Source: Gammaproteobacteria bacterium (lineage in GTDB: Bacteria > Pseudomonadota > Gammaproteobacteria > Pseudomonadales > Halieaceae). Taken from it: a stretch of DNA of 64,000 bases. The stretch's first letter is position 1. Each line of letters opens with the position of its first letter. Both the position numbers and the translations under genes were made by a program. The notes under the pieces were generated by a model. That model was given only the letters and a program-made list of their open reading frames with translations, did no database searches and was not told where the DNA came from. Location: NCBI GenBank assembly GCA_024742415.1, contig JANSYN010000010.1, positions 39,251-103,250 of the forward strand, in the 5' to 3' direction. Positions 15,862-42,942 of the stretch are shown in pieces.

Positions 15862-16530
15862 ATGCGGATACTCTTTATTCTCATGCTCGCCGTGCTGCTT
15901 GGCGGTTGTGGTGGCTATGAAATCAAGAACCTGGTCAAGTCTGACATTGACCTGGTAACGGATGAGTTTATCGCCCAGACGCGCCTGGCGGTGCAGGAAC
16001 TTGTGGTCAAACTTTACAAGCGCAATCCGGCGCAGCTGCGCAAGAACCCTGGCATGACCGTGCCGATGCGCCTGGCGCAGCTGCGCGATAATCGCTATGA
16101 GTTGAAGTTCGCCGAACTGGGTTATCGCCAGGACATCGATGCGATGAACCTGGCATTCGATGAGGAGTTTGGCGGCGATCGCGTCTTCGCACTGGCAGTT
16201 GGCCTGGGCAGCATGTTGCGCGAAGCCTACCAGTACAAGCCCGAGATGTTCCTGCCCGACCAGCTTGATGCCGCGGTATTGCTCACCAGTGCGCGTAACG
16301 TGGAAGTGCTGCTATGGAAGTTGAAGAACACGCGTCGCCCCAACGGCGAGCACTACATCATCAGCCATGAGTACCAGGGAGTGGTGGACAACCTCAGCTT
16401 TGAACGCCTGTTCGGGGAAATCATTGTTCTGCAGGAAATGATGGCGAAAATCGCCGGTGATTCCGACGACCGCGTGGTCACCGGTGCGGTGCACGCGGTG
16501 TCCAAGGTGTTTATTCCGCTGCCGCTATAG
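15862..16530 (+). CDS. Hypothetical lipoprotein
   Basis: Lipobox LLGGC after a hydrophobic signal; long ORF with typical codon bias. Confidence 0.7.
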   Translation: MRILFILMLAVLLGGCGGYEIKNLVKSDIDLVTDEFIAQTRLAVQELVVKLYKRNPAQLRKNPGMTVPMRLAQLRDNRYELKFAELGYRQDIDAMNLAFDEEFGGDRVFALAVGLGSMLREAYQYKPEMFLPDQLDAAVLLTSARNVEVLLWKLKNTRRPNGEHYIISHEYQGVVDNLSFERLFGEIIVLQEMMAKIAGDSDDRVVTGAVHAVSKVFIPLPL

Positions 16531-16555
16531 CGCGCAGGGGCAGCGATGCCAGGCG

Positions 16556-17143
16556 CTACGGGTTGTCAGTCGCAGCGGCGGGTTCTGCGCCTGTTGCCAT
16601 GGCGTCACCGATGCTTGCCGCGAATCTGGCCAGCAGGGCTTTTTCGGCGCTGGCCAGCGCGGCGTAGCCCGGGGTGTCCAGCGGTAACGATTCGGCAAAC
16701 CGGTGGGCGCTGGTCATTACACCGCTGCTGCTCAGCCACCAGTAGGCTACGAGGAGCGCCTGGCCGTCCAGGGTGCCGTGCATCTGGTCGATGCGGACAT
16801 TGATGGTTGTGCGGCCCGGGTCACGGTTGCCCGGCAACAGGTTCTCGCCGGTGCGCCTGGAAATTTCCTGCCGCAGTAACGTTTCTATGCCATCGCGGAC
16901 GGGCTCGGCCCACAGGTGGTAGCGCGCCGCGCGCACTTCGCCCGGAGCCGTTTCGAGCAGCAGGCCAGGCTGGTCGATGTACGGTGCGATGGAAATCTGT
17001 CCCAGAGCAAACTCACGGGATGGCTCCAGCGCGCCGCTGGTGATCGTCGCATCAGAGCGCAACAGATAATAGTTGGGTTCCAGCGGGGGGGTAGCACAGG
17101 CGCCAAGTGTGAGCGCCAGTACCAGGGCGATGCTGCGTTTCAT
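16556..17143 (-). CDS. pqiC: PqiC-family outer-membrane lipoprotein
   Basis: Lipobox LGAC, YYLL, I.IAPYIDQPGL, HLWAEP; last gene of the pqi operon with a 4-bp overlap. Confidence 0.85.
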   Translation of the reverse strand: MKRSIALVLALTLGACATPPLEPNYYLLRSDATITSGALEPSREFALGQISIAPYIDQPGLLLETAPGEVRAARYHLWAEPVRDGIETLLRQEISRRTGENLLPGNRDPGRTTINVRIDQMHGTLDGQALLVAYWWLSSSGVMTSAHRFAESLPLDTPGYAALASAEKALLARFAASIGDAMATGAEPAAATDNP

Positions 17144-18765
17144 TTACCGGCCTCCGGTATTGGGTCCGCCGCCGGCGCTGATGGCAACAGGACCGCATTG
17201 GGTTGTTCGGCCAGAGTGTGCGTAAAGACTTCGAGATTTTGCAGTGCACGATTCAGTCGCAACAGGCTGGAGTCGATGGTCTGGTAAACCGGCGAACCGG
17301 GAGCGACACCCTCAAGCGTAGCGCGCAGTTCACGCAGGGTGCCTTCTATTTCGGCGGGCAATTGCTGGGTGCTGGAACTGTTGATCAGCCCATTGAGGCT
17401 CTCCAGTGTGCTGTCGAGTGACGCTATGGCGGCGTTTGCCGTTTCTACCGTTTCCAGCAGCGGCAAGTCACTGAGCGTATCGAGTATCGATGCCACCTGC
17501 TGCTGCAACTGGTCGAAGCCCGTCTCAACGGTGGGAATCTCCTGGTAATCCATGAAGCTGCCCATGCTGGCAGACTGCGCCGCCTCAAAATAATCCAGGT
17601 TGATAAATTTCGCCCCGGTGAGCAGGCTGGCCGATTCCAGCGAGGCGCGCATGCCGTTGCGCACGCCAAGCTCGAGCGCATCGCGCAGTTTCTGGATCGA
17701 GGACTCACGGTCTGGCATTTCCAGGCGCGCAGGCTCCAGGTAGATCAGCACGGGCAGTGAGCTGGCCTGCCCTTTGAGACCCACGGCAAGTGCGCTCTCC
17801 ATAGTTTCACGCAGCAGTATCCGTTCGACCTTGCCGATGTGAATGCCACGGTACTCGACGGGCGCGCCGGGTAGCAGGCCCTTGACTGACTGGCTGAAGG
17901 ACACAACGTAGTAGGTGCCAAATTTGTACGGGTTCTCCAGGATGTCATCATAGGAGTCATACAGGCGAAACTCGGCATCGTGGGTGACGGGCTCTCCGGC
18001 CGCGATGCCCGGCGGATTGCCCAGCGCGATGCCGCCGAGAAAGACCGTATCCAGGGAGCCGGTGTCGATCTTCAGGCCCTCGGCGCTGGCGCTCATGGAA
18101 ATACCACTGACGTCCCAAAAGCGCGTGGAAGTGGATACCAGGTCGTCATAGGGTGCATCGATAAAAATACTGTGGCGTATCAGGCGCGATACCGGGTCAA
18201 ACTCGGTACTCTCGACCTGGCCGATCTTGAAACCCTTGAACAGTACCGCATCGCCGGTGCCGACTGACGTGCCGGAGCGGCTGGTTAACTGTATGCGCAA
18301 GCCGTGCGCGTCCGCAGCGGTGAGGGGAGGTTTGTCCAGCGCGGTAAACTTGCGCCAGCCGGCCTCGCCGGTGCCGGGTGACATTTCGATATAGGCACCG
18401 GAAAGCAGAGTATCCAGACCCGAGATTCGGTCGATACCCACGGTGGCGGTGACGACCCAGAACTTGGTGTCCTCGCGCAATAGCGGCGATGCCTGGCGAT
18501 TGAGCCTGACGGTGGCAACCACGCCGTTGAAGTCATCGTTCAGCCTGACGCTCTCGACAATGCCCATATCGACATTGCGATACTTTACCTTGGTCTTGCC
18601 CTGTTCCAGGCCATTGGCCGTGGTGAAGCCCAGTTCGATCTGTGGGCCCTGGGTGCTCCAGTTGTGAATGACCACAGACGCACCCAGCACCAGCGCGAGC
18701 AGAGGAATGAGCCACACCTTACTCATGTTGGAGCTTTGTGTTATTACCGCTTGTTCAGTGCTCAC
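17140..18765 (-). CDS. pqiB: PqiB intermembrane transport protein (three MCE/MlaD domains)
   Basis: VWLIPLLAL, GLEQGKTKVKYRNVDMG, TKFWVV, GLDTLLSGAYI, RFWDVSG, SVKGL.PGAPVEYRGI and SLLTGAKFI. The GTG start overlaps the pqiA C-half. Confidence 0.92.
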   Translation of the reverse strand: MSTEQAVITQSSNMSKVWLIPLLALVLGASVVIHNWSTQGPQIELGFTTANGLEQGKTKVKYRNVDMGIVESVRLNDDFNGVVATVRLNRQASPLLREDTKFWVVTATVGIDRISGLDTLLSGAYIEMSPGTGEAGWRKFTALDKPPLTAADAHGLRIQLTSRSGTSVGTGDAVLFKGFKIGQVESTEFDPVSRLIRHSIFIDAPYDDLVSTSTRFWDVSGISMSASAEGLKIDTGSLDTVFLGGIALGNPPGIAAGEPVTHDAEFRLYDSYDDILENPYKFGTYYVVSFSQSVKGLLPGAPVEYRGIHIGKVERILLRETMESALAVGLKGQASSLPVLIYLEPARLEMPDRESSIQKLRDALELGVRNGMRASLESASLLTGAKFINLDYFEAAQSASMGSFMDYQEIPTVETGFDQLQQQVASILDTLSDLPLLETVETANAAIASLDSTLESLNGLINSSSTQQLPAEIEGTLRELRATLEGVAPGSPVYQTIDSSLLRLNRALQNLEVFTHTLAEQPNAVLLPSAPAADPIPEAGK

Positions 18766-19381
18766 GTTGGTCCTGTTCCGCGTTGTCCCAGATGAGTCGG
18801 GAGTCAAAGCATTCGGCGGCGATCATTGTCACAATGACAACCCCAGCAAAGGAGATCGCTGCGACGCCCGGCCGAATGACCATCAAATCCCCAAGATGCA
18901 CGAGCGCTGCGAGTATCGCAACTACAAATACGTCGATCATTGACCACTTGCCAATGAACTCTGTCACTCGATAAATCTGGCTGCGCTGCTTCGCGTCCAT
19001 TACCTGGTGATTGTGCACGCTCCAGCACAGGTAAAACAGCACCATGAGTTTGCCCGATGGCACAATCACGCTGAACAGGAAGATCACCAGCGCGATCGGG
19101 ATGGATCCCAATTCAATCAGGAGCAGTATGCCCCCAAGAATGGTTGAGGCTTCAGTGGGCGCACCCAGGTGTTCGGTGTACATGATGGGGTACAGGTTGG
19201 CTGGAATGTACAGCACGCAGGCGGTGACAAGCAGGGCCAGCGTGCGTTGCAGGCTTTCCTCGGTGCGCAGGTGCAGGCGCGAGCCGCAGCGCGGGCAGTG
19301 CTGCAAGTGCGCCGGTGACAACTTGCAGCACAAGTGGCAGGACGCCAGCCCGACCGCTGCGGCCGTGTGTGCGTTGCTCAT
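18755..19381 (-). CDS. pqiA: PqiA-family membrane protein (C-terminal-half gene)
   Basis: CHLC...CPRCG, PANLYPIM, FSVIVP.GK and EFIGKWSMIDVFVV. ATGA overlap with the upstream half. Confidence 0.9.
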   Translation of the reverse strand: MSNAHTAAAVGLASCHLCCKLSPAHLQHCPRCGSRLHLRTEESLQRTLALLVTACVLYIPANLYPIMYTEHLGAPTEASTILGGILLLIELGSIPIALVIFLFSVIVPSGKLMVLFYLCWSVHNHQVMDAKQRSQIYRVTEFIGKWSMIDVFVVAILAALVHLGDLMVIRPGVAAISFAGVVIVTMIAAECFDSRLIWDNAEQDQREH

Positions 19382-20097
19382 TGCATCGACTCCAGCGCTT
19401 CTATTTGCTGCCAGCACTGGTAGCGGTCCAGGCTGGCCACGGCCAGCGTGAAACAAATGGCAAAGGCCACGTAGGCCCAGAAGGAAACCCCGAGGTAGAC
19501 CGTGGCCATCGCGGCGATTTTCACCAGCGCTACGATCACGCCGATGATGAACACCTCAACCATGGCCCAGTTCTGGGCAAGAAAAATGCCCTTTGCGAGT
19601 GTGCGCAGCCACGGGTAGTAGCGCTGCTGTAGCAGCGGGATACAAAGGCCGACCATCATGACCAGTACGCCGGCAGGAATGAAAATAATAAAGGCACCGA
19701 CGATGAAGGCGGCCGATGGCATGCCGTACTCAAACAGCGTGCCGGGTGTTTGTCCCAGCGTCATCTGGTTCTCCAGACCGCCGGCAGAAAAAGACAGGAA
19801 GGAAAAACTGTTGGCGATCACCAGCAGTATCAGCGCGGCCACAGTGAACGCCAGCGTGCGACTCGAGGCGTCTGCACGATAGCGCGTGAGTGTGTGTCCG
19901 CAGCGCGGGCAGGCGGCGCTCTCGCCATCGTGCAGGCCCGCTACGTTGACCAGTAAATCGCAGCCCGGGCAGGCCAGGTCAGCGCCTGTTTCATCGACGC
20001 GTCTTGCCGCGCTGTCTTCAGGCGTGGTGCTGCCGGAAGCCTTGCGCGTCCTTGTGCTCGTAGCTGTGCTGATGCTTGTGCTCATGGCTGTGCTCAT
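19378..20097 (-). CDS. pqiA: PqiA-family membrane protein (N-terminal-half gene) with a Ser/Thr-rich leader
   Basis: CPGCD...[14 protein letters not shown] and [17 protein letters not shown]. Confidence 0.9.
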
Positions 20098-20324
20098 GGC
20101 TGCGCTGGTAGTTGTGCGCCAGTTGTGCCTGTAGTTGCGCTCGTTGTTGTGCCTGTGGTTGTGCCTGTGGTTGTGCCTGTGGTTGTGCCTGTGGTTGTGC
20201 CCGTAGTTGTGCCTGTAGTTGTGCCTGTAGTTGTACCGGCAGTTGTGCCTGTAGTTTTGCTCGCAGTTGTGCCTGTATTTGTGCCCGTAGTTGTACCGGT
20301 AGTTGTACCCGCAGTTGTGCCCGC
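20050..20324 (-). repeat. 12-bp tandem array (consensus ACAGGCACAACY), about 23 units including one 11-bp unit
   Basis: Read directly: 17 units of 12 bp (20324-20121), an 11-bp unit GGCGCACAACT (20120-20110), then 5 degenerate 12-bp units running into the pqiA start. Confidence 0.9.
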
Positions 20325-20369
20325 AGGTGCGCCCATCATTGTGTTGGTCTTGCTGTTGGCTGTGCCCAT
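20094..20369 (-). CDS. Thr/Gly-rich repeat ORF (TGTT)n, possibly a detached N-terminus of PqiA
   Basis: ATG at 20369. Variation between units is largely at third codon positions, and its TGA overlaps the pqiA ATG (ATGA). Confidence 0.4.
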
Positions 20370-20654
20370 CGTCGCACTCAGCAATGCGCGGGTGCCGCTA
20401 CGTCCATGGGCTGGATGTGGGTACTCATTGCAGGGGTCGTGCAACGCGAGCCAAAAGCGGGGTCGTCACTCGACAGCAGCTTCGTAAGGCGCAGTATAGC
20501 GTTCGCCGCCGGGGCTGTGTAGCAAGGTGTGCGCAGACGATGCTGTGTTTTGCGTACTCTCGTGCTGCCCAGTACCCGTAGATGTCCAGAAAATCGCGTG
20601 CTGTGCCGGGTGCACCATCTATACCGTCACTGGCGATGGGGCTACACTGGCGGC

Positions 20655-23600
20655 ATGAAAGTAGTCAGTGTAAGCCGCCTCCACCGGTGGGTGTTGGGGT
20701 GGTGTGTTGTCCTTACGGTACTGGTGCTGTCGGCTGTTGATGCCTCTGCAGAGCCTGCTCCGGGGTACCGTTGTAGCTTTGTGGCAGGCCAGGCGTCGCC
20801 CGGTGTGCTGCGCTGTCGCCTCTTCACCCAGGAAGCAATGGCTGGCCAGGCAGACCTTCTGGCAACATTGCCCGAACAAAGCGTGCGCCTGGAACTGGAA
20901 CTGCTTGACGCACTCGACGGCGCTGCCATGCAACCGCTTCTGGATGCCATTGCAGCGCAGTACCGGGCCAGTCTGGAACTGAAATCCGGCATCCGGCTGG
21001 TTGCCAGTGGCTCTGCCGCCGCGGCTGCCGTGGCGGCGCCAGCCACCTTGCCCAATGCACTGTGGCGCGCGCTACTAACGGAAGTGGACGCCTTCAAGCT
21101 GACCGACCAGGCACTGCTTGCTCTGCGCGAACATGGTGCGACGGGTGCGCTGGATCACGTGCATTACCGTTTTTGGCAAAACCGGGATGGCGCGCCGGTC
21201 AGTGGCGGAGCCCCCAGTGTGGATAAGGGTTCTGCAGATGTTGTCACCGCGTTGCTCGAGGCCTGTGACCAGTATGCGGTTTCCTGCTCACTGGTGCGTG
21301 TGCCTGCTGCATTTTTGGCAGCGCAGTCCAGCGCTGCGGCTGCGGGCCCGCCGCCGCTGTTTGCACCGGGATCGGTGATGCCGGTGTTCACCCGGATGCA
21401 GGTCAATACCGGCGCGGGCCTGGTGCCCGTACTTGCCGGGCTGCAGTGGAAGCCCGAAGCGGTCGTTAATACCAATCGCCAACTGGTGTTGCCGCTGCGC
21501 TACCGCGGAAACACGCCGCCATTGCGAGAGGCCAGGAGTGTGCAGTTCGATATTACCCTGCGACGTGCGGCGCTGGCGGCGAAGTATCCTGCCGGCAAGC
21601 TGCGCTGGGAACTCTCCGATGGACAGGAGCGCGCCTTGCAAAGCGGCGAAGTGACGCCCGCTGCAGACGGCACGCTGAACATTCGCGGCCTGATGCTGAC
21701 ACCGCAGAAACCCTACCGGCGTTTGACCCTGCTGCCACCGCCGCCGCAGTGGCAGGTGGTGTACACACGCCAGCCACGGGCCCGCAAGCCAGTGCCCGGT
21801 ACGCCGATCGCCGAGGCGGCGAACTGGCAGCATGCAACGGACGTGGGGCGTATCAACGGTGGCATTGCCGAGGCAGATGTGGTGATCGACGATCTGCAGG
21901 GCAATACAAAGGTGATCCATGACTGCACCACGTCCAGGGCGATTTGTGTAGCACACGAGGCGCGGGTGAGCCCGGACGGCACGAAAATCGCCTACTCCGT
22001 GGGCTATGGCAACGAGCTGGTGCCTGTGCGTGTTGAGGGCGTAGACCTGGGCATCAGGCACATTCCGGGCCTCACCCACGCGGATATCTGGATTTACGAT
22101 TTGCAGACGGGCAAGAAATGGCCGGTGCCCAATCACCCGGATCGAGCGATTGACCGGCAGCCGGAATGGCTGAACAACGAAAAAATCGTTTTTGCGAGCA
22201 ATCGCGCCGGCGTCTACCCGTTCAAGAATCCCACCAGCATGCACCAGGGAAAAGACCAGTTTGGTCGCGGTCGCTGTTTTAACCCGCCGTACTGTGTTTC
22301 ACAGGAATACGGTTACGCCCCCGGCGGTATGGCGATGCAGATCTGGACAATGAACATCGACGGCACGGACGCGCGCAATATCAGCCCGCATGAACAGAAT
22401 GCGCTGGCCCCGGCCGTGATGAGCAACGGCGATATTCTCTATTCCTGCTGGAACGCGCATGAGAACAAGAGCTTTGATACCAAGACAGCGCACTCCAACA
22501 AACCGGCGACGGCAAAGAACAAGTGGTGGTTGTGCCGCACCGATGGCAATGGCGCCGACGCCACCGTGATACTCAATGGTCACAAAACAATGACGCTCAA
22601 GACCAAGGCGTGGCTGCCCGGCAGCGTGAGCGGCGGTGAGAACCGTACGGCGTTGCGTGCGATTCGTTCGGTTGCAGAGATTCACAAGGACCGGCTCGCC
22701 GTGACCAATTACTACCGTTCCAATCATGTCGGCAGCATGGGAATTATCTTCGCGCTGGACTACCTGGACCCACACGTAGAGGGCTGCTCCACAGCCAGTT
22801 GCTATCCCGAGGCCGAACGACGCAGCGGCCGGCGCGGCAGTGGGCATTTTGTGCCCAGCACGCTCACCGCCCTGACGCCCTACGGCATGGACCAGGACAT
22901 GGCCGTACGGCGTGACGCCAAAGGGCGTGCGCTGGGTAAGGCGGGTTATCCGGCGCCGCTACCCAACACCGATTCGCAGTACCTGATCACCCATGCGCGC
23001 GGTTCGTGTTATGAGGTGACGCGTTTTAGCGAGGCCAATCGCCACGCCATGGGTGGGGAGCCGACCTGCCAGAAGGCGCTGTACAAGGTGAAGGTCGATC
23101 GCGTGACCAATCCCTTTGACCAGCGCCAGATGGAGTTGCTTGCCGGTGGTGAACAGTGGCAAGTCTGGGATGGACGGGCGATTGCACCCTACCGCGATTT
23201 TTTCGGGCAGGAATTGCCTGACCAGCCCGAACCGCTGGATGAAAACGCCGCCTGTTACCTGCAGGTGGTGGATGCGCGCAAGGCAGAACTGGAGCCGGCC
23301 AACCCCTATGACTGGCTCAATACGCTCTATCAACAATGTGCTTTCCAGGGCTGCGCAGTGAACACCGAGGATCCGAACTTCCACGCGCGGAATATGCACG
23401 CACTGACCGTATTTCTTCCGCAGATGTGGGATTTTACCTACAGCGGCAACAAGCAGAAGGCCTATGCCAGCATTTTGAATAACACCGGACACAAATCGAT
23501 GGCAACGCTGGGCTCGCAACCCTTGCTCGCAGACGGTTCCGTAAAAATGCGCGTGCCCTGCGAAACGCCGTTGATCATGGTCGGTACAGACAGGAACGGC

Positions 23601-24395
23601 ATGATGATCGCGCATGATGTCATGCTGCACTCACTGCGCGCGGGGGAATCGCGCACCTGCCACGGCTGTCACGATGGTCATTCCGAAGAACGCGCCGCGC
23701 AGATCAGGGGGAGCGCGGTCGAGCGCTTTGCCGCAACCGCGGCCTTCAACACCTTCCCACCCATGCCCGCCAGCACGCCACCGGTCACCTTTGCCGATGT
23801 GCAGCCCATTCTCGAGCGCCGCTGCAGTGGTTGTCACAAAGACATGACCAATCATGACGGTCTGCTGTATTCGCGTGTGGCGCAGGATTACGAACAGCAT
23901 GACTGGCCCTGGGCGAGGAAACAGCCCGGCGTAGGCAATCGCACGCATGTGGAGCACGTATTGATCAAGCGCCCGGGTAAGGGTTATGCAGTCGGTGACA
24001 AACTGCAGTTTCCCCCCGGCGGCGCAGCAGGCCAGGTAGCGGCCGTGAACCGCGATGGCGGTATCGCAAAGATCCGCCTGTCAGCGGGGGGCGTGGGCTA
24101 TGAACCGTTTACGCGACTGGGTGTGGCTTCGGCGGGTGGACAGGGCGCTGACCTTGTCGCAATGACAGATCGCTTTGACCTGCCGCGGCCTTACAGCAGC
24201 AAGTGGGTGGCCCGCTTCGCGCGGGATTCCCTGCTGTACTGGAAGTGCGTAGGCTCACGCCAGGATGGCCGCACCGACAAGCAGTACGCCAATGACATAG
24301 ACTTCGGGCCCGCGCATGAATCCGGAGCCACCGCCCAGGAATGCCAGACGATTGGGCGCTGGATCGATACCGGCATTCAGCACAATCTGCAGTAA
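20655..24395 (+). CDS. Large exported HzsA-related di-heme c protein (beta-propeller + HZS-alpha-like middle domain + cytochrome c)
   Basis: Signal peptide ending ASA-E; TolB/PD40-like repeats (VSPDGTKIAYS, PEWLNNEKIVFASNR, IWTMNIDGTDARNIS); LADGSVKMRVPCETP...GTDRNG...AGESRTCHGCH; second CxxCH in VTFADVQPILERRCSGCH. Confidence 0.75.
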   Translation: MKVVSVSRLHRWVLGWCVVLTVLVLSAVDASAEPAPGYRCSFVAGQASPGVLRCRLFTQEAMAGQADLLATLPEQSVRLELELLDALDGAAMQPLLDAIAAQYRASLELKSGIRLVASGSAAAAAVAAPATLPNALWRALLTEVDAFKLTDQALLALREHGATGALDHVHYRFWQNRDGAPVSGGAPSVDKGSADVVTALLEACDQYAVSCSLVRVPAAFLAAQSSAAAAGPPPLFAPGSVMPVFTRMQVNTGAGLVPVLAGLQWKPEAVVNTNRQLVLPLRYRGNTPPLREARSVQFDITLRRAALAAKYPAGKLRWELSDGQERALQSGEVTPAADGTLNIRGLMLTPQKPYRRLTLLPPPPQWQVVYTRQPRARKPVPGTPIAEAANWQHATDVGRINGGIAEADVVIDDLQGNTKVIHDCTTSRAICVAHEARVSPDGTKIAYSVGYGNELVPVRVEGVDLGIRHIPGLTHADIWIYDLQTGKKWPVPNHPDRAIDRQPEWLNNEKIVFASNRAGVYPFKNPTSMHQGKDQFGRGRCFNPPYCVSQEYGYAPGGMAMQIWTMNIDGTDARNISPHEQNALAPAVMSNGDILYSCWNAHENKSFDTKTAHSNKPATAKNKWWLCRTDGNGADATVILNGHKTMTLKTKAWLPGSVSGGENRTALRAIRSVAEIHKDRLAVTNYYRSNHVGSMGIIFALDYLDPHVEGCSTASCYPEAERRSGRRGSGHFVPSTLTALTPYGMDQDMAVRRDAKGRALGKAGYPAPLPNTDSQYLITHARGSCYEVTRFSEANRHAMGGEPTCQKALYKVKVDRVTNPFDQRQMELLAGGEQWQVWDGRAIAPYRDFFGQELPDQPEPLDENAACYLQVVDARKAELEPANPYDWLNTLYQQCAFQGCAVNTEDPNFHARNMHALTVFLPQMWDFTYSGNKQKAYASILNNTGHKSMATLGSQPLLADGSVKMRVPCETPLIMVGTDRNGMMIAHDVMLHSLRAGESRTCHGCHDGHSEERAAQIRGSAVERFAATAAFNTFPPMPASTPPVTFADVQPILERRCSGCHKDMTNHDGLLYSRVAQDYEQHDWPWARKQPGVGNRTHVEHVLIKRPGKGYAVGDKLQFPPGGAAGQVAAVNRDGGIAKIRLSAGGVGYEPFTRLGVASAGGQGADLVAMTDRFDLPRPYSSKWVARFARDSLLYWKCVGSRQDGRTDKQYANDIDFGPAHESGATAQECQTIGRWIDTGIQHNLQ

Positions 24396-24461
24396 CCGCG
24401 TCTGCGCGGTGCTGCGCCGCTGTGCCTGTGTTATCCCCAACGGCGCGGTGCTGCGGTCGCG

Positions 24462-25295
24462 TCAGTCACTGTGCGCCGAGATAAAATCGGCAACGCGTGC
24501 ACTGGTTTGCGCAAACGCCGGGTTGCCGTCTTCTCGTGGATTAAAAAAACCGTGACCGAGCCCGGCATACAGTCCGACCTGGCACTGGCCGCCCTCTGCC
24601 TGCACCGCTGCGCAGAACGCGTTCACCATGGCCGGCGTCACCTCGCTGTCCAGCTCGCCCGAAAGAATCAGGGTAGGCGGAAACCGCGCATCGACGTTGT
24701 GCAGTGGAGACACCTCGTGCCACTGTTTTGCGGTGAGGTGGTGGGAAGGTGTGCAGGGTGAAAGATCGACCACCGGGTTATACAGGGCGAGCGCGGCAGG
24801 GCGCCTGCGAGACTTGCCGTGCATGCCAGCGCCCAGCGCTGCGGCCAGGTGGCCACCGGCCGAGCCGCCGCCCGCGAATATGCGGTGACTATCAATGCCC
24901 AGGTCGGCGGCATGTTCGTGCAGGTAGTCCAGGGCCGCGCCCGCATCGCTGATCGCGCCGCGAATATCCGGCGCATGCAGTGGCCCCAGTCGATACTCGG
25001 CCGAGATGCAGGTAATGCCGCGTTGTGCAAAAAATTCGCACTGCGGAAAAAACTGCTGCGCCTGGCCATAGCGCCAGCCGCCGCCATGGAACAGCAACAA
25101 CGCCGGTACAGGCGCGGCGCTATCGCTGGCATAGAAAATGTGCAGCTTGAGCGCGCGCTCACCCGCGTTGCCATAGTGGATGGTGTGATGCGCACGGGGT
25201 TCAAAAAGATCCAGTTTTTTCAGCGCCAGCAGCACGATCAGCGGCAGCAGCACCAGCAGCGCGCCGCTGACAAAATACAGAACTTCTCTGGGCAT
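24462..25295 (-). CDS. Alpha/beta hydrolase, HSL/GDXG esterase family, with an N-terminal TM anchor
   Basis: FHGGGW, GGSAGGHLA, GELD (Asp) and GLGHGF (His). Confidence 0.88.
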   Translation of the reverse strand: MPREVLYFVSGALLVLLPLIVLLALKKLDLFEPRAHHTIHYGNAGERALKLHIFYASDSAAPVPALLLFHGGGWRYGQAQQFFPQCEFFAQRGITCISAEYRLGPLHAPDIRGAISDAGAALDYLHEHAADLGIDSHRIFAGGGSAGGHLAAALGAGMHGKSRRRPAALALYNPVVDLSPCTPSHHLTAKQWHEVSPLHNVDARFPPTLILSGELDSEVTPAMVNAFCAAVQAEGGQCQVGLYAGLGHGFFNPREDGNPAFAQTSARVADFISAHSD

Positions 25296-25614
25296 GGCGT
25301 GACGACCGTGTGAGTGGCTGGTGTGGGCAATGTAGTCGCTTTGCCGTGTATGCGTCCAGTAGGCAGGCGCTGTTGCCGGGCGCGTGTCGGACCACGGCAC
25401 ATCGCCGCGCCGTCTTGCGGGTCGCGCGGCGTGCGTGGGCGCACATGCGCCGCGCCGCACAGTGACGTGCGAATACACTCGCAGCCCTTGCGCTGGCTTG
25501 CTAATCTGCTGGCTGACGAGGCGGCTGCAAAGCAGCGGCCGGTGGCGCGCAAGGTTTGGGGCACGCGCTCGCCACTGCGCCGCGCGTGTTGCGCCTGCAG
25601 GTATAAGGGATGCA

Positions 25615-26238
25615 ATGACAGTGAACATGGCAAAAGAACTGGCGGCCCACCGTGTAGTGCCGGTGATAACGCCCGTGGATATCCCCTCAACGGTAGCGCT
25701 GGCCGACGCGCTGGCGGCCGGGGGCATGGGTTGTGTTGAAATCACACTGCGCGCCGACTGCGCGCTGGATGCTATTCGCGCGGTGAAAACGTCTGTTGCC
25801 GGCTTGCGGGTGGCGGCAGGCACAATCACCCAGCCCGCCGCCATGGAGGCGGCACTCGACGCGGGGGCTGATTTCCTGGTCAGCCCGGGTATCAGTGTGG
25901 GCCTGTTGCAGCAGGCGGCGTCGATGGACGCCCCCTTCCTGCCGGGCGTGGCGACCGCGTCAGAGGTGATGTTGGGCCTCGATCACGGTATGGCATGCTT
26001 CAAACTGTTCCCTGCCCATGCCCTGGGGGGGTTGGCGTTGCTGAAGAGCCTGGGCGGTCCGTTTCCGCAGGTGCGTTTTTGCCCCACGGGCGGGCTCAGT
26101 GCGGGCAATTTTCGCCAGTACCTGGCGCAGCCCAATGTAGTGTGTTGCGGTGGTTCGTGGATGGTAACGCCGGAGCTGGTGGCGGCCCGGCGCTGGGATG
26201 AGGTTCGCGCGCTGGCCGCCGCGGCCCTGGCCGCATGA
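25615..26238 (+). CDS. eda: KDPG/KHG aldolase
   Basis: VVPVI, VEITLR, AGT, FLVSPG, PGVATASE, FKLFPA (Schiff-base Lys), FCPTGG and CCGGSW. Confidence 0.93.
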   Translation: MTVNMAKELAAHRVVPVITPVDIPSTVALADALAAGGMGCVEITLRADCALDAIRAVKTSVAGLRVAAGTITQPAAMEAALDAGADFLVSPGISVGLLQQAASMDAPFLPGVATASEVMLGLDHGMACFKLFPAHALGGLALLKSLGGPFPQVRFCPTGGLSAGNFRQYLAQPNVVCCGGSWMVTPELVAARRWDEVRALAAAALAA

Positions 26239-26269
26239 GTCCGCCGGGAATGGCAGGGCGCAGTCGACC

Positions 26270-27217
26270 ATGAAAAAGGGCAGGGCAAGCCGGACCGCCG
26301 AGGGTGCCGCCGCCGCCCGCGCGTTGCATCGTTTTGGTGTGCCCGACCCCCTGTTTGACGATCCCTATGCGCTGCGCTTTACCTCGCCGGCCTGGCGCAT
26401 GCTAATGTCTGTTCCGGGGCTGGGTACCTGGGTGAACCGCAGCCTGATGCGGCCCCTGCGTCCGGTGCAGGCGCAGGTGCTGGTGCGCAGCCGCTATGCC
26501 GAGGATCAGTTAGCCGCTGCACTGGCGCAGGTAGGCGCCGCGCAGAATGGCCGCGGTCACGATGGTCGTGGCGCGCAGCAGGATGCCTACCCCGCAGGCC
26601 GCAGTGCCATCGGGCAGTATGTCATTGTCGGCGCAGGCTTCGATTCATTTGCGTTGCGCCGCACCGAGTGGGCCAAAACCTTGCGCATTTATGAGCTGGA
26701 CCATCCCGATACGCAGCTTGCCAAGCGTCAGCGCCTGCATAAAGTGAGCCGCGAGCTCCCCAAAAACCTTGAGTTTGTGCCGGTGGATTTTGAGCGTGAA
26801 ACGGTGGCTGCGGCACTGCAACGTTCCAGTTTTGATAGCGCCAGCCCCGCTTTTTTTTCATGGCTGGGCACCACGCCTTACCTGTCCAATGCAGCAACGC
26901 TGGCCACGCTGCAGGCGATCGCCGAGATCGCCGCGACCGGCTCGCAGTTGGTCTTTGACTACATGATCCCGCAGGCGCTGCTGCACGGTGAGCAGTTGGA
27001 AATGATGCAAACCCTAAAGGGCTACACCGAACGCCGCAATGAGCCGCTGTGCGGTGATATTGATCCGCCGCGCCTGCGCGCGGCGGTACAGGCAATGGGT
27101 TTTGAATGGCTGGAGGAACTCGACGGTCATCAGCAGTACGAGCGCTACTTTGCGGCGCGCCAGGATGACCTGGTGCCCATGCATGCCACGCACCTGGTGC
27201 ACCTGCGCCGTTGTTGA
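26270..27217 (+). CDS. SAM-dependent methyltransferase (leucine carboxyl methyltransferase/TIGR00027-like)
   Basis: SRTAEG, DDPYA, RSRYAED, YVIVGAGFDS, YELDHP, VPVDF and WLG motifs. Confidence 0.85.
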   Translation: MKKGRASRTAEGAAAARALHRFGVPDPLFDDPYALRFTSPAWRMLMSVPGLGTWVNRSLMRPLRPVQAQVLVRSRYAEDQLAAALAQVGAAQNGRGHDGRGAQQDAYPAGRSAIGQYVIVGAGFDSFALRRTEWAKTLRIYELDHPDTQLAKRQRLHKVSRELPKNLEFVPVDFERETVAAALQRSSFDSASPAFFSWLGTTPYLSNAATLATLQAIAEIAATGSQLVFDYMIPQALLHGEQLEMMQTLKGYTERRNEPLCGDIDPPRLRAAVQAMGFEWLEELDGHQQYERYFAARQDDLVPMHATHLVHLRRC

Positions 27218-27301
27218 CTCGTCGGCAGTCGCACGCGGCAGTGCCTGCGCTCGCTCAGTGCATCATGCCTGCGGCGGTCGCAAGGGCATCGGGCTGATCA
27301 G

Positions 27302-28171
27302 TCAGTGTGATGCGTTGTCGGGGTGCCACTGTCGCGGATCCAATTGGTAGTAGTGCAGTAGTTGCTCAAACAGTTCGGGCCGTTTGGCCTGCAATTCCAG
27401 TGGCTTTTCGAAAAATGTTTCAGTGGCGACCGCGAAAAACTCCGCTTCGTTGCTCGCTCCGTAGGTGTCCATCACGGTGGGTTTGCCCTGTTGCGCACGC
27501 TCGCGCAGGTCGTTGAAATTTTCGCTAAAGACCGTTGCCCAGGTTTGGTAGCTAGTGTGGGAGCTGCCCCGGTGATCATTGCGCCGCAGTGCTGGCGCAC
27601 CATTGGTGGCGCCGGAGGCAGAGTCCAGCTGGTGCGCGAATTCGTGCAGCACAACGTTGTGGCCGTCGGTGAAATCGCTGGCCCCCCGTGCAACATCATC
27701 CCAGGAAAGAATCACGCGGCCGCTATCCCAGGATTCACCCAGGAGCGCGTGGGCCTCGTCGGCAACGGTGCCGTCTTCCTGGAACGACTCGCGGGCGACC
27801 AGAAACGCCGCCGGGTAGACCAGGATAGCCTGCAGCCCGGGGTACAGCGGCCCCTGGCGACCCAGGCACAGCAGGCAGGCCTGCGCAGCGATGCACACCC
27901 GCATCTCGTCGGTCACCAGCAGCCCGGCGCAGCCGTAGAAGGTTTTGTCATCCAGGAACAGGTGGATCATCTGGTGCAGGTGATTGCGTTGTTGTGCAGA
28001 CAGCCGGGTATACACCGGCAGGCGCTGTTCCAGGTATGTGACCCACAAGGCAGGCAGGGGTGTGTTGATCAGGCGGGCATGTCGCCAGCGCCGCCAGTAG
28101 TAGTGCAGCGCAAAGGCGACCAGCGCCAGGGCAATGGGCAGCAAGGGTAGCAGGTTGTTGAGTGATTCCAC
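27302..28171 (-). CDS. Zinc metallopeptidase, MtfA/M90 family
   Basis: HEFAH zinc motif, IAAQACLL, GESW, and YGASNEAEFFAVATETFFE; N-terminal TM helix. Confidence 0.88.
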   Translation of the reverse strand: MESLNNLLPLLPIALALVAFALHYYWRRWRHARLINTPLPALWVTYLEQRLPVYTRLSAQQRNHLHQMIHLFLDDKTFYGCAGLLVTDEMRVCIAAQACLLCLGRQGPLYPGLQAILVYPAAFLVARESFQEDGTVADEAHALLGESWDSGRVILSWDDVARGASDFTDGHNVVLHEFAHQLDSASGATNGAPALRRNDHRGSSHTSYQTWATVFSENFNDLRERAQQGKPTVMDTYGASNEAEFFAVATETFFEKPLELQAKRPELFEQLLHYYQLDPRQWHPDNASH

Positions 28172-40887: not shown

Positions 40888-42942
40888 TTAATTCACGTGG
40901 GGCAAGAAGGAATAGTGCTGCGCGTAGTGCAGCATTTGCGCGTCAAAACTTGTCGGGTACGATAGCAGCACATCGACGAGTTCTCCCCGACGATACACCG
41001 GTGTCAGCACCGGGTTCACGAAACCGCGATAGGGCGCGATGTCCAGCGGTGCGTAGCGCTGCAGTACCTCAGCATGGAGCGCTGGGTCCAGGTCGGTGCC
41101 GTAGGTGGCAACCAGTGCCTCGGCGCTGGCGAAATCGCCCTCGGACTTGATGCGCTGTAGTTCCCGCAACAGCGTGGCGAACAATCCACGCAAGGCCTGG
41201 TAGTCGTTGATGACAAAGTACGTCTTGCCATCGCGCACCCTGCGCTCGACGATGTTCGCCGCCTCGCCCTGTGCATAGGCCCAGCGGGCAACCAGGGCGC
41301 GGTTGCGCATGTGCGCATCTTCCAACTGGCCGCCGGGGGGTATGCGATACATCTGGGTTAGCAATCCGCTGCGCAGGTACCGGTCATAGGCGGCGCGGCC
41401 CACATCGAGGTTTGGCATTACGCCCAGTTCGATCAGTTTGGCGTCCATGATGTAGTAGAGTGCTACCAGGTCTGCGCGCGCCTCTTCCAGCGTACTGGCG
41501 TACTGCTTGAGCGTTTCCCTGGTCTCGCCCACCCCGGGGTTGATACGCCCGGAGGCGTGTCCGATCACTTCATGCATATCGATGGAAAGTGCACTGGCCA
41601 GCTGCCGATACTGGCGGGCGCGCTGGATCTCTTGTTCGTCCCAGGCAAATTCCTGCAGTGCTTTGTCTGGCGAGGCGTAGTAGGCGTCAAAGACATTGGT
41701 AAGCGTGACGGACTTGGAGCCGTGCTGTGCGCGGATCCAGTTGGCATTGGGAAGATTGATGCCCACTGGCGTGCCGGGTGAGGCGTCGCCGGCCTCGGCA
41801 ACCACGGTGATGGCCTTGCCCATAATGCCCTTGACGTTGTCGCGCTTGTGCGCGTCCATGATGGGCATATGGTCTTCAAACCACTGTGCGTGAGCGCCGA
41901 TGGTCGCGATGCGGGCGTCGGTTTTCACGTCGCGAAAAGACACGATCGACTCATACGACCCGCGATAGGCAATCGGGTCGTTGTAGACCTCGATAAAGCC
42001 GTTGATCAGGTCTACGTGCGAGGCAGTGTCTTCAACCCAGGCTATGCTGTGGGCGTCGAAGGTACGCAAATCGCCGCTTCTGTAATAGCTGATCAATAAC
42101 TGCAGCGACTTCTTCTGTTGTTCGCTGTCGGCCACTGCAACGGCCTTGTCCAGCCAGTGGACGATCTCTTCTATGGCCTGTCCATACATGCCGCCCACGC
42201 GCCAGACCCGCTCGCGCACGCGGCCGTCGTTGTCTTTGACCAGTTGACTGTTCAGACCATGGGAAATCGGCGTGGGATCGTCCGCCGCCGAGAGGCCGGC
42301 GTAGAATGCACGCACCTCTGCTTCACTGACATCTCGATAGAAGTTCACGGCGGAGGAGGCGACCTTGTCAACGCCGGGCTCTGTGACCACTTTTTTCGGC
42401 GCGATGGCCGCATCGAACAGAATGCCGGTGAGCTGCCTGGACAGTTGCTCGTCACTTTCGCCCTCCAACAGCGGCAAGGCACCTGAATCGGCGACATCGG
42501 CGATGTACTGCTGGAAGCTGTCGGCGCTGAACCCAGGCTGCAGTTTGAGGGTGGAATTGTGGTGGTGAATGCCGTTGGCAAACCATACCTGGCGTGTATA
42601 GGTTCTGAATGCCGCAAATTCTGCGGTGCTGCGATCACCGCTGTAGTGCTGGATGATGGCTTCGAGCGTGCGCCGTATGCGCAAGTTGTGGCGGTAGTTC
42701 TGGTCCCACATGATGTCGCGCCCGGCGTAGCTGGCCTGGTACAGGTAGTAGATCAGTGTTTTCTGTTGCAGTGGGAGCTCGGCAAAACCCGGTACCTCGT
42801 AGGCCATCACCTGAATGTCGGCAAAGCGCTCAAACTCGAATTTGAAATCCTGTGCAGGCTGCGGTGTGTGGGCGCATGCCGCAAGCAATATGGCCAACAG
42901 GGCAGCGGATAGAAGGTTGGTAGGGCTCGGCAGTGGGGGCAT
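40888..42942 (-). CDS. Dipeptidyl-peptidase III (family M49), lipoprotein
   Basis: Lipobox LAAC, ERFADIQV, PVGINLPN, HGSKSV, HEVIGH zinc motif and EEARAD. Confidence 0.92.
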   Translation of the reverse strand: MPPLPSPTNLLSAALLAILLAACAHTPQPAQDFKFEFERFADIQVMAYEVPGFAELPLQQKTLIYYLYQASYAGRDIMWDQNYRHNLRIRRTLEAIIQHYSGDRSTAEFAAFRTYTRQVWFANGIHHHNSTLKLQPGFSADSFQQYIADVADSGALPLLEGESDEQLSRQLTGILFDAAIAPKKVVTEPGVDKVASSAVNFYRDVSEAEVRAFYAGLSAADDPTPISHGLNSQLVKDNDGRVRERVWRVGGMYGQAIEEIVHWLDKAVAVADSEQQKKSLQLLISYYRSGDLRTFDAHSIAWVEDTASHVDLINGFIEVYNDPIAYRGSYESIVSFRDVKTDARIATIGAHAQWFEDHMPIMDAHKRDNVKGIMGKAITVVAEAGDASPGTPVGINLPNANWIRAQHGSKSVTLTNVFDAYYASPDKALQEFAWDEQEIQRARQYRQLASALSIDMHEVIGHASGRINPGVGETRETLKQYASTLEEARADLVALYYIMDAKLIELGVMPNLDVGRAAYDRYLRSGLLTQMYRIPPGGQLEDAHMRNRALVARWAYAQGEAANIVERRVRDGKTYFVINDYQALRGLFATLLRELQRIKSEGDFASAEALVATYGTDLDPALHAEVLQRYAPLDIAPYRGFVNPVLTPVYRRGELVDVLLSYPTSFDAQMLHYAQHYSFLPHVN

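What the first reader, a model, noticed from the sequence alone, without database searches (positions are those of the whole stretch)
20655..24395. Exported 1246-aa di-heme protein with hydrazine-synthase-alpha-like architecture in a non-anammox bacterium
Seen: signal peptide, TolB/PD40-type propeller repeats, the DGSVKMRVPCETP...D..G...GESRTCHGCH segment, and a second CxxCH (CSGCH, 23823-23837) in a C-terminal cytochrome domain. Established: the anammox hydrazine synthase alpha subunit is a propeller plus a heme-bearing middle domain plus a C-terminal heme domain, and HzsA-related proteins outside anammox bacteria have no assigned function. No hzsB/hzsC or other anammox genes are in the window. 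Inference: a stand-alone periplasmic heme enzyme of unknown chemistry, and the strongest novel-enzyme candidate here.
Basis: partly seen in the sequence, partly recalled or inferred. Interest (0 to 1): 0.75.

Follow-up and report, generated by a model that had tools for sequence, protein, structure and literature searches.

The report
Orphan hydrazine-synthase-like two-haem protein
A marine Halioglobus-type bacterium makes an exported two-haem protein built like the alpha subunit of anammox hydrazine synthase; it is not that enzyme, but belongs to an uncharacterised family that is tied to serine esterases and is also carried by phages.

Summary
ORF 20655-24395 encodes a 1246-aa protein with a signal peptide. 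It passes Pfam HZS_alpha, and its 887-aa core (AlphaFold pLDDT 93) superposes end to end on HzsA (PDB 5C2V; Z 28, 572 residues).

It is not a hydrazine synthase:
- It scores 35 bits against an 800-bit cut-off for the HzsA model.
- The Tyr591 haem ligand is absent.
- No hzsBC genes are linked.

It belongs to a separate clade with an invariant C-H-G-C-H-D-G-H haem-1 motif. The bis-His haem 2 of HzsA is kept.

New points:
1. Residues 33-365 are the relic of a serine esterase plus a beta-sandwich. Relatives keep an intact Ser-Asp-His triad, either fused or as the adjacent upstream gene. This orthologue group has lost it.
2. An HSL-type esterase gene lies next door in 11 of 11 genomes of the genus.
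3. At least five phage contigs carry family members with a signal peptide and the haem motif.
4. Close relatives occur in most genomes of the window's genus. None was found in 400 sampled genomes of the class.

Most likely it is a self-sufficient periplasmic haem enzyme that acts after an ester hydrolysis. The substrate is unknown. The scan found the same kind of protein before, in another Halioglobus genome.

The parts
20655..20750 (+). Sec-type signal peptide (residues 1-32, predicted cleavage A-S-A|E-P)
   Evidence: Read from the translation. Homologues, including the phage copies, also start with signal peptides.
20751..21374 (+). Relic of an alpha/beta-hydrolase (CE1/esterase-D-like) domain, residues 33-240, with the catalytic triad lost
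   Evidence: AF2 model ma4e4074b089b has pLDDT 84. All 50 best VIA matches are alpha/beta hydrolases, Z 8.3-9.9 over 139-195 residues. The Ser, Asp and His columns are kept in 27-29 of 29 other family members and in none of the 7 rows of this orthologue group.
21003..21020 (+). Former nucleophile elbow (A-S-G-S-A-A in place of G-x-S-x-G-G); Gly119 stands where the Ser nucleophile was
   Evidence: Ungapped alignment between flanking anchors. In the model it lies at the strand-to-helix turn, model residues 81-88.
21375..21749 (+). Beta-sandwich domain (residues 241-365), the conserved C-terminal half of the esterase module
   Evidence: Model strands 210-328. This is the only part still detectable against the stand-alone module P0263 (32% identity, query residues 236-435).
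21750..23204 (+). Six-bladed TolB/PD40-type beta-propeller (residues about 366-850)
   Evidence: Model m8604b1cb7e00 has pLDDT 93. VIA Z 23-24 to TolB propellers over model residues 6-488.
23205..23744 (+). HZS_alpha middle domain (residues about 851-1030) carrying haem 1
   Evidence: Pfam PF18582 matches residues 941-1007 at E 3.7e-10. The profile match to 5c2v_A covers this domain and the C-terminal domain together (E 1.1e-8).
23646..23693 (+). Haem-1 signature E-S-R-T-C-H-G-C-H-D-G-H-S-E-E-R (residues 998-1013): Cys1002/Cys1005 attach the haem, His1006 is the presumed axial ligand, His1009 is invariant
   Evidence: Invariant columns of alignment A1. The motif is present in nearly all of P0002-P0112. 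HzsA reads C-S-G-C-H-Y-G-S-Y here.
23745..24395 (+). C-terminal cytochrome c domain (residues 1031-1246, plus stop) carrying haem 2
   Evidence: Aligns with the HzsA C-terminal domain. It is absent from the roughly 650-aa family members.
23823..23837 (+). Haem-2 attachment motif C-S-G-C-H (residues 1057-1061)
   Evidence: Conserved in at least 90% of A1 rows.
24315..24317 (+). His1221, the predicted distal ligand of haem 2
   Evidence: Aligns with HzsA His772 (chain index 745) in the profile alignment. Conserved in at least 90% of rows.
23931..24170 (+). Roughly 80-aa six-stranded beta module inserted in the cytochrome domain (residues 1093-1172)
   Evidence: Model strands 740-812. It hits phrog_26741 (E 1.2e-6) and baseplate-hub phrog_1922 (E 3e-4). 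It is missing from paralogues, which match as two stretches.
24404..24425 (+). Terminator-like hairpin 9 nt after the stop codon
   Evidence: Consensus scan only.
24462..25265 (-). Convergent neighbour: HSL-family (family IV) esterase with an N-terminal membrane anchor, HGGG and G-G-S-A-G-G motifs. The real start is probably Met194 of the 460-aa ORF.
   Evidence: Pfam Abhydrolase_3/BD-FAE, NCBIfam HSL families, translation. It lies next to the orthologue in 10 of 10 other genomes of the genus.

Best explanation
The gene encodes a Sec-exported protein with two covalently bound c-type haems, matured by the Ccm system. It is a full-length structural homologue of the hydrazine synthase alpha subunit, but it belongs to a different, uncharacterised clade with the signature E-x-R-T-C-H-G-C-H-D-G-H-S-E-E-R.

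Proposed working model (inferred):
- It is a self-sufficient periplasmic haem enzyme that performs the second step of a 'hydrolyse, then transform' route.
- A serine esterase frees or unmasks a small substrate. That esterase was ancestrally fused to the N-terminus. Here it is an inactive relic, so the activity would be supplied in trans by the genome's two stand-alone copies of the module or by the syntenic HSL-type esterase.
- The substrate reaches the catalytic haem 1 at the interface between the propeller and the middle domain. His1006 is the likely axial ligand. The invariant His1009, Asp1007 and Glu1012 may hold a second metal, as His587 holds Zn in HzsA.
- The bis-His haem 2 (His1061/His1221) in the C-terminal cytochrome domain is an optional electron port. 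Many relatives lack it.

Shown: the fold, the motifs, loss of the triad, fusion and adjacency with esterases, phage carriage, and the distribution.
Inferred: that haem is actually attached, the axial ligands, catalysis, and coupling to ester hydrolysis. The substrate is unknown.
For: - Fold: Foldseek top hit is 5c2v_A at E 2e-23; VIA Z 28, 572 residues, rmsd 3.4.
- Domain: Pfam HZS_alpha scores above its cut-off.
- Haem 1: C1002, G1004, C1005, H1006, H1009 and E1012 are invariant in 35 diverse sequences. The motif is present throughout the clade.
- Haem 2: C-x-x-C-H plus His1221 aligns with HzsA His772.
- Maturation: CcmE is present in the genome.
- Catalytic core: about 650-aa relatives consist of signal peptide, propeller and haem-1 domain only.
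- Esterase link, fused: the N-extension is homologous in 62 family members. It has an alpha/beta-hydrolase fold. The G-x-S-x-G Ser, the Asp and the His are invariant or nearly so in active forms and lost in all 7 rows of this orthologue group.
- Esterase link, adjacent: a stand-alone module gene lies directly upstream of the haem gene in L030 (39-bp gap) and in the complete genome G581.
- Esterase link, syntenic: an HSL-type esterase is the neighbour in 11 of 11 genomes of the genus.
- Self-sufficiency: no redox partner is conserved nearby. At least five phage contigs carry the gene as a single insert.
Against: - No experiment exists for any member of this clade.
- I could not inspect model coordinates. 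The haem ligands, the haem-to-haem distance and any second metal site are therefore untested.
- In HzsA the two alpha-subunit haems are too far apart for efficient electron transfer (PMC12607021), so the 'electron port' role of haem 2 may not hold.
- Sequence-profile support for the esterase assignment is weak: E 0.07, and only chance hits. The assignment rests on the fold and on the conserved triad pattern.
- The HSL-esterase neighbour is convergent, not co-transcribed. Its constancy within one genus may be inherited synteny.
- Wider gene neighbourhoods are heterogeneous.
- RNA libraries do not show specific transcription.
Confidence: 0.45

Rival explanations
1. HzsA-type nitrogen chemistry. 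Haem 1 binds hydroxylamine or a related N-O/N-N compound and carries out an oxygen-tolerant, electron-independent condensation or cleavage, as HzsA haem alpha-I does. The esterase/amidase module would release the N-oxygenated substrate, for example from hydroxamates.
For: - The only characterised relative uses this domain to condense hydroxylamine with ammonium. That reaction starts on the oxidised haem and tolerates oxygen (PMC12607021; bioRxiv 10.64898/2026.02.25.707902).
- Family members without haem 2 fit chemistry that needs no electron relay.
- The whole alpha-subunit fold is kept.
Against: - The Tyr591 ligand that sets the very low potential of haem alpha-I is absent.
- The score is 35 bits against the 800-bit cut-off of the HzsA equivalog.
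- There is no gamma-type partner to make hydroxylamine.
- The host lineage is described as aerobic heterotrophs (my own knowledge, not tested here).
- No nitrogen-cycle genes appear in any neighbourhood seen.
Confidence: 0.08
2. Glycan- or lipid-ester processing accessory. The protein oxidises or modifies a product of carbohydrate-esterase or lipase action, working like a periplasmic quinohaemoprotein-type dehydrogenase (catalytic propeller domain plus cytochrome c exit domain).
For: - The esterase relic resembles CE1 feruloyl/acetyl esterases and esterase D.
- The neighbour is a BD-FAE/HSL esterase.
- A TonB-dependent receptor lies upstream of that esterase in 6 of 10 relatives, and DUF3604 is present in 7 of 10.
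- A sulfatase and a DUF1080-cytochrome gene are nearby in L005.
- Acyl-CoA and lipid genes are nearby in L015, L016 and at the paralogue.
- Other scan notes place wider-family members in fucose and glycoside-hydrolase clusters (untested leads).
Against: - The neighbourhoods are inconsistent, and such genes are abundant in these genomes.
- No carbohydrate-binding or glycoside-hydrolase family was detected in the protein.
- The phage copies have no such context.
Confidence: 0.2
3. Non-catalytic role. The TolB-like propeller binds an envelope component or peptide, and the haems serve only structure or electron transfer. The phage copies would then act on the host envelope, for example in superinfection exclusion or lysis timing.
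For: - The propeller is almost as close to TolB (Z 23.8) as the whole protein is to HzsA.
- The genes lie in phage late regions: between terS and terL, or after antiterminator Q.
- The esterase domain is already dispensable in this orthologue group.
Against: - The invariant polar residues around haem 1 (E998, R1000, H1003, D1007, H1009, E1012) and in the propeller (H643, R671, E675, Y686, Y687, N690) look like an active site.
- A conserved catalytic triad in the fused esterase of relatives argues for enzymology.
- The TolB N-terminal domain is absent, and the TolB family score is far below its cut-off.
Confidence: 0.12
4. Peroxidase or catalase-like detoxifier of peroxides in the periplasm.
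For: - An exported protein whose haem 1 may be five-coordinate.
- Relatives with haem 1 only need no electron donor chain, which would fit a dismutation reaction.
- HzsA haem alpha-I has been compared to catalases (PMC12607021).
Against: - The catalase-like Tyr ligand is exactly what is missing here.
- The genome has ordinary CCP/MauG genes.
- The esterase linkage is not explained by this reading.
Confidence: 0.1

Closest known systems
Hydrazine synthase alpha subunit HzsA (Kuenenia stuttgartiensis, PDB 5C2V/5C2W chain A)
   Same: - Same three-domain build: six-bladed propeller, haem-bearing middle domain, C-terminal cytochrome c domain. VIA Z 28 over 572 residues.
- C-x-x-C-H of haem 1 in the same place.
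- Bis-His haem 2, including the distal His (His772 aligns with His1221).
- Exported.
   Different: - 13-18% identity, and 35 bits against the 800-bit family cut-off.
- Tyr591 is replaced (Ser1010), with an invariant His at the position of Ser590.
- No beta or gamma subunits.
- Extra N-terminal esterase relic plus beta-sandwich.
- An 80-aa phage-type insert in the cytochrome domain.
- Found in a Halioglobus-type gammaproteobacterium and in phages, not in anammox bacteria.
HzsA homologues of Planctomycetota/Desulfobacterota (clades I-IV of Hagglund et al. 2025, PMC12758564)
   Same: - Non-anammox HZS_alpha proteins that lack Tyr591 and probably have a canonical haem pocket.
- Function unknown.
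   Different: - Those are encoded next to fused beta-gamma (CCP-like) homologues, often with FG-GAP/CRTAC1 genes. This clade has no such partner and is linked to serine esterases instead.
- The paper reports His772 absent from its clade I. Here the equivalent His is conserved.
Prolyl-oligopeptidase (S9) family and CE1/esterase-D serine hydrolases
   Same: - The ancestral architecture combines a propeller with an alpha/beta-hydrolase carrying G-x-S-x-G, Asp and His.
- Structural matches of the N-domain include FrmB, CE1 feruloyl esterases, PfeE and the hydrolase domains of DPP-IV.
   Different: - The domain order is reversed (hydrolase first).
- No Pfam or NCBIfam hydrolase family is detected by sequence.
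- In this protein the triad is gone.
Type II quinohaemoprotein alcohol dehydrogenases (PQQ propeller plus cytochrome c domain); analogy from my own knowledge
   Same: Periplasmic, a propeller-based catalytic part followed by a C-terminal c-type cytochrome domain that could pass electrons to soluble carriers.
   Different: No PQQ motifs, a six- rather than eight-bladed propeller, and the catalytic cofactor would itself be a haem. No homology is claimed.

Membership tests
Hydrazine synthase alpha subunit (HzsA; NCBIfam NF052339 equivalog) | Full-length match to the family model at or above its cut-off (800 bits) | tested here: not met
   35.3 bits, with only residues 943-1015 matched.
Hydrazine synthase alpha subunit (HzsA) | Three-domain architecture: six-bladed propeller, haem middle domain, C-terminal cytochrome c domain | tested here: met
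   VIA Z 28.0, 572 residues, model 4-887 against chain 54-804. Foldseek E 2e-23.
Hydrazine synthase alpha subunit (HzsA) | Haem alpha-I ligated by Tyr591, four residues after the C-x-x-C-H histidine | tested here: not met
   Tyr591 aligns with Ser1010. The motif reads C-H-G-C-H-D-G-H-S, with no Tyr, in the whole clade.
Hydrazine synthase alpha subunit (HzsA) | Zn site formed by His587 and Cys303 | not testable with these tools
   His1006 is the equivalent of His587. The propeller region around Cys303 does not align by sequence, and model coordinates could not be inspected.
Hydrazine synthase alpha subunit (HzsA) | Bis-His haem alpha-II (C-x-x-C-H plus His772) | tested here: met
   C1057-x-x-C1060-H1061, and His1221 aligned with His772. 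Conserved in at least 90% of rows. Ligation itself is inferred.
Hydrazine synthase alpha subunit (HzsA) | Encoded with hzsB and hzsC (propeller and CCP/MauG-like dihaem subunits) | tested here: not met
   The neighbours are pqiAB, an esterase and a methyltransferase. CCP_MauG matches occur only on contigs C27 and C25.
Pfam HZS_alpha (PF18582) domain-containing proteins | Match above the gathering threshold (26.6 bits) | tested here: met
   40.7 bits, E 3.7e-10. The paralogue on C12 scores 38.6 bits.
TolB (TIGR02800) | Family model at or above its cut-off (343 bits), with the TolB N-terminal domain | tested here: not met
   20.2 bits. Only the propeller superposes.
Alpha/beta-hydrolase serine esterases (N-terminal module) | Alpha/beta-hydrolase fold | tested here: met
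   All 50 best VIA matches are alpha/beta hydrolases, Z 8.3-9.9. This is a moderate Z, and sequence profiles give no significant match.
Alpha/beta-hydrolase serine esterases (N-terminal module) | Ser-Asp-His catalytic triad with a G-x-S-x-G elbow | tested here: not met
   Gly119 stands at the Ser position, and the Asp and His motifs are absent. The same is true of all 7 rows of this orthologue group. The triad is kept in 27-29 of 29 other members.

The most novel reading that the evidence does not exclude
The clade is a mobile, phage-spread, two-module periplasmic system: a serine esterase/amidase plus an HzsA-type haem. The haem performs oxygen-tolerant, electron-independent N-O/N-N chemistry in aerobic marine bacteria, for example handling hydroxylamine released from hydroxamate-type compounds. 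That would be a free-living relative of the reaction that makes hydrazine in anammox bacteria.
Probability: 0.07. Interest if true: 0.9.

Novelty: new variant of a known kind. Interest (0 to 1): 0.55.

Why it matters
HzsA is the only studied member of a large haem-protein family, and its origin is debated. A recent paper argues that it arose from pre-existing periplasmic haem proteins (PMC12758564). This clade offers tractable relatives in aerobic, possibly culturable bacteria. They are single polypeptides without beta or gamma partners. The fused or adjacent esterase is a built-in clue to the substrate.

The same gene sits in phage late regions with an intact signal peptide and haem motif. 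Its product would be an exported c-type haem protein as a phage auxiliary gene. I found no report of a phage hydrazine-synthase-like gene in the searchable literature.

Working out the chemistry would assign a function to about a thousand sequence clusters. It would also show what the HzsA scaffold did before anammox.

Tried and rejected
1. Folding the core with two haems (complex prediction) was not run by the tool, so it gives no evidence on ligands.
2. A profile of 35 active esterase modules against PDB sequences gave only chance hits to kringle domains. An earlier profile gave S-formylglutathione hydrolase at a non-significant E of 0.07. The esterase call therefore rests on the fold and the triad pattern.
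3. Pfam found nothing in ten N-extensions. PHROGs found nothing for the N-extension or the phage copy.
4. tblastn of the phage copy and of the insert against 50,697 deposited phage genomes gave no match.
5. The ESM Atlas feature search of the N-extension scored 0.76, which is uninformative.
6. Biofloc metatranscriptome runs hold a roughly 99%-identical strain. Depth is flat over genes and spacers on both strands, so transcription is not shown.
7. The idea that the gene after a 651-aa relative is a split-off cytochrome domain was rejected: there is no similarity.
8. Recent transfer into this genome was rejected. GC is uniform, and the gene is present in 21 of 24 and 8 of 10 sampled genomes of the genus.
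9. The 684-aa ORF at 40888-42942 is not the displaced DUF3604; it is a peptidase M49.
10. The promoter scan found no convincing + strand promoter upstream.


Full report
THE OBSERVATION. ORF 20655-24395 on the + strand translates without interruption into 1246 residues. A longer GTG-initiated frame from 20529 exists. The ATG at 20655 is followed directly by a textbook signal peptide: basic start, hydrophobic core, A-S-A|E-P. Orthologues and distant relatives also begin with signal peptides. Pfam HZS_alpha matches residues 941-1007 above threshold (E 3.7e-10, 40.7 against 26.6 bits). A terminator-like hairpin follows the stop codon. The flanking genes are on the opposite strand: pqiA/pqiB/ABC_trans_aux upstream and an alpha/beta hydrolase downstream. 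The gene is therefore monocistronic.

STRUCTURE. Short relatives of about 900 aa align only with residues 366-1246, so I folded residues 360-1246 with a 35-sequence alignment. The model has mean pLDDT 93 and pTM 0.91. The best PDB match is HzsA (5c2v_A, Foldseek E 2e-23). VIA-align gives Z 28.0 with 572 residues at 3.4 A, running from model residue 4 to 887 and chain residue 54 to 804. The propeller alone matches TolB at Z 23-24. The protein is thus a full-length structural homologue of the hydrazine synthase alpha subunit.

NOT A HYDRAZINE SYNTHASE. The NCBIfam equivalog for HzsA scores 35 bits against a cut-off of 800. In HzsA the haem alpha-I iron is held by Tyr591, while His587 of the C-x-x-C-H binds zinc (PMC12607021; PMC12758564). 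In the profile alignment, HzsA C-S-G-C-H-Y-G-S-Y lines up without gaps with C-H-G-C-H-D-G-H-S. Tyr591 therefore corresponds to Ser1010, and Ser590 to the invariant His1009. No hzsB or hzsC is nearby, and the only CCP/MauG-type genes lie on other contigs. The bis-His haem alpha-II does seem to be kept: His772 of HzsA aligns with His1221, which is conserved in at least 90% of relatives. CcmE is present, so the cell can make c-type haems.

THE FAMILY. A scan of 1.84 billion cluster representatives found 979 clusters at E below 1e-3 and 123 below 1e-30. Nearly every sequence down to about 35% identity carries E-x-R-T-C-H-G-C-H-D-G-H-S-E-E-R. Remoter ones read C-x-G-C-H-L-H-S, and only HzsA has the Tyr. 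Many relatives of about 650 aa consist of signal peptide, propeller and haem-1 domain only. That is the conserved core, and the second haem domain is optional. Invariant polar residues cluster around haem 1 (E998, R1000, D1007, H1009, E1012; H1003 is nearly invariant) and in the propeller (H643, R671, E675, Y686, Y687, N690, E709). This looks like an active site, but I could not inspect coordinates to confirm it.

THE N-TERMINAL 365 RESIDUES ARE A DEAD ESTERASE MODULE. This extension is homologous in 62 of the collected family members, including phage copies. A model of residues 33-368 (pLDDT 84) shows an alternating strand-helix domain followed by a beta-sandwich. All 50 best VIA matches to the first 208 model residues are alpha/beta hydrolases: esterase B, FrmB, CE1 feruloyl esterases, PfeE and the DPP-IV hydrolase domain, at Z 8.3-9.9. 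In relatives the module carries G-x-S-Y-G-G, a conserved Asp and W-H-x-x-G-H, in the canonical Ser-Asp-His order. Ser, Asp and His are invariant in an alignment of 35 active modules and present in 27, 28 and 29 of 29 non-orthologue rows. In this protein and its six sampled orthologues all three are gone. Gly119 sits at the nucleophile position, at the strand-to-helix turn of the model; there is a 21-column deletion; and the His motif is lost. Among orthologues the extension is only 27-35% identical, while the core is 65-76% identical. Only the beta-sandwich half is still detectable against a stand-alone module. Sequence-profile searches do not reach significance for any esterase family, so the assignment rests on the fold plus the triad pattern.

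ESTERASE LINKAGE BEYOND FUSION. Stand-alone versions of the module exist: about 430 aa, with a signal peptide and an intact triad. One lies 39 bp upstream of a 955-aa family member on the same strand in L030. Another lies directly upstream of the second paralogue in a complete genome of the same genus (G581). This genome has two unlinked copies, at C12:356391-357644 and C16:286748-287692. Separately, an HSL-type esterase (HGGG and G-G-S-A-G-G motifs, N-terminal membrane anchor) is the convergent downstream neighbour in this window and in 10 of 10 other genomes of the genus. Other neighbours vary: a TonB-dependent receptor in 6 of 10 and DUF3604 in 7 of 10, both missing here. Fusion, fission and adjacency together make a Rosetta-stone argument that the haem core works with an ester hydrolase. 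An earlier follow-up in this scan, on another Halioglobus genome, reached the same statement (e1-5247724). I used it as a lead and tested it here.

PHAGES. Family members sit in contigs with phage hallmark genes:
- P0107 lies between the small and large terminase subunits, followed by portal and major head protein genes.
- P0108 lies upstream of terminase and an SU10-type portal.
- P0084 lies just after RusA and an antiterminator-Q-like gene.
- P0094 lies with Gp77, DUF1353 and a peptidase M23.
- P0106, identical to an IMG/VR contig, lies upstream of a large terminase.
- Two more IMG/VR contigs carry relatives.
All the copies I checked (P0107 and the three IMG/VR contigs) keep a signal peptide and the haem-1 motif. 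In a maximum-likelihood tree the phage copies fall in at least three clades interleaved with bacterial ones. One Halioglobus paralogue clade is nested within a grade of phage copies (SH-aLRT 98 and 95, quick search). The roughly 80-aa insert in the cytochrome domain of this protein (residues 1093-1172) matches phage virion-protein families: phrog_26741 at E 1.2e-6 and baseplate hub phrog_1922 at E 3e-4. P0084 and P0106 match across this insert, while the paralogues do not. No deposited phage genome has a match. I found no report of a phage hydrazine-synthase-like gene in the literature I could search.

DISTRIBUTION. Close relatives are present in 21 of 24 and 8 of 10 sampled genomes of the window's genus, often as two or three paralogues. 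In other genera of the family only 30-37% identical relatives were found (7 of 39 genera). None was found in 400 genomes drawn from the class. The Pfam domain as such occurs in 11 of 400 sampled genomes of the phylum. This genome has a second copy on C12, followed by a META-domain gene. GC content is uniform across the locus, so the gene is a long-standing resident.

HOW IT PROBABLY WORKS. What is shown is listed above. The rest is inference. I take the protein to be a self-sufficient periplasmic haem enzyme. Haem 1, at the propeller/middle-domain interface as in HzsA, would be the catalytic site. His1006 is the likely proximal ligand, because the Tyr is absent; Hagglund et al. inferred the same for other non-anammox homologues. 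The invariant His1009, Asp1007 and Glu1012 may bind a second metal. Haem 2 would be a bis-His electron port that many relatives do without. The substrate would be something released or unmasked by a serine esterase, here supplied in trans. I put this at about 0.45.

The rivals are:
- a glycan- or lipid-ester accessory oxidoreductase (0.2), which overlaps with the main model;
- a non-catalytic envelope-binding role (0.12);
- a peroxide detoxifier (0.1);
- HzsA-type N-O/N-N chemistry (0.08).
The last is kept alive by recent evidence that the alpha-type half-reaction is oxygen-tolerant and starts on oxidised haem (bioRxiv 10.64898/2026.02.25.707902; PMC12607021).

NOVELTY AND VERDICT. HzsA-like proteins outside anammox bacteria are known and unassigned (PMC12758564). 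The Pfam family exists, and this scan has already met the same kind of protein in another Halioglobus genome and wider relatives elsewhere. What is not described, as far as I could search, is this partner-less clade with its own haem-1 signature, its esterase fusion, fission and decay, and its carriage by phages. I rate it a new variant of a known kind, with interest 0.55.

Noticed in passing
L008:8001-12209; L012:6135-10793; L017:7001-11419; L018:8001-12017; L019:1127-5620: Five phage or prophage contigs carry 1340-1550-aa family members with signal peptide, esterase module and haem motifs, placed between terS and terL, after an antiterminator Q, or next to Ig/beta-helix tailspike-like genes. 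An exported c-type haem protein as a phage gene appears to be unreported.
   Followed up: partly
G000:C12:201585-204656 (L003:7585-10656) and L003:10689-11150: A second paralogue in the same genome (about 60% identical core, lacking the 80-aa insert), followed 33 bp later by a META-domain gene. It lies near KshA-like Rieske and FAD-dehydrogenase genes.
   Followed up: partly
G000:C12:356391-357644(-) and G000:C16:286748-287692(+): Two stand-alone genes in this genome encode the esterase-plus-beta-sandwich module that is fused to relatives of the haem protein. The module has no Pfam family.
   Followed up: partly
window 24462-25844(-): The 460-aa ORF of the neighbouring esterase is probably over-extended. 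Orthologues are about 247-279 aa, and a Met at residue 194 (nt 25265) is followed by a membrane anchor.
   Followed up: partly
window 20050-20369: A 12-bp tandem array lies between pqiA and the haem gene, at the place where 7 of 10 relatives have a DUF3604 gene. This genome also lacks the TonB-dependent receptor that 6 of 10 relatives have beyond the esterase.
   Followed up: no
window 52736-56653(+): Another large exported haem protein (1305 aa): 3-keto-disaccharide hydrolase/DUF1080, DUF7133 and a cytochrome c domain. It belongs to a different family from the one studied here.
   Followed up: no
window 16000-28000: Biofloc (aquaculture) metatranscriptome runs contain contigs 95-100% identical to this locus, so a close strain lives in such systems. 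Depth is flat over genes and spacers, so expression is not shown.
   Followed up: partly
control genomes: Bacteroides thetaiotaomicron is the only one of 14 control genomes with a Pfam HZS_alpha match above cut-off. Other scan notes place wider-family members in glycan-degradation clusters.
   Followed up: no
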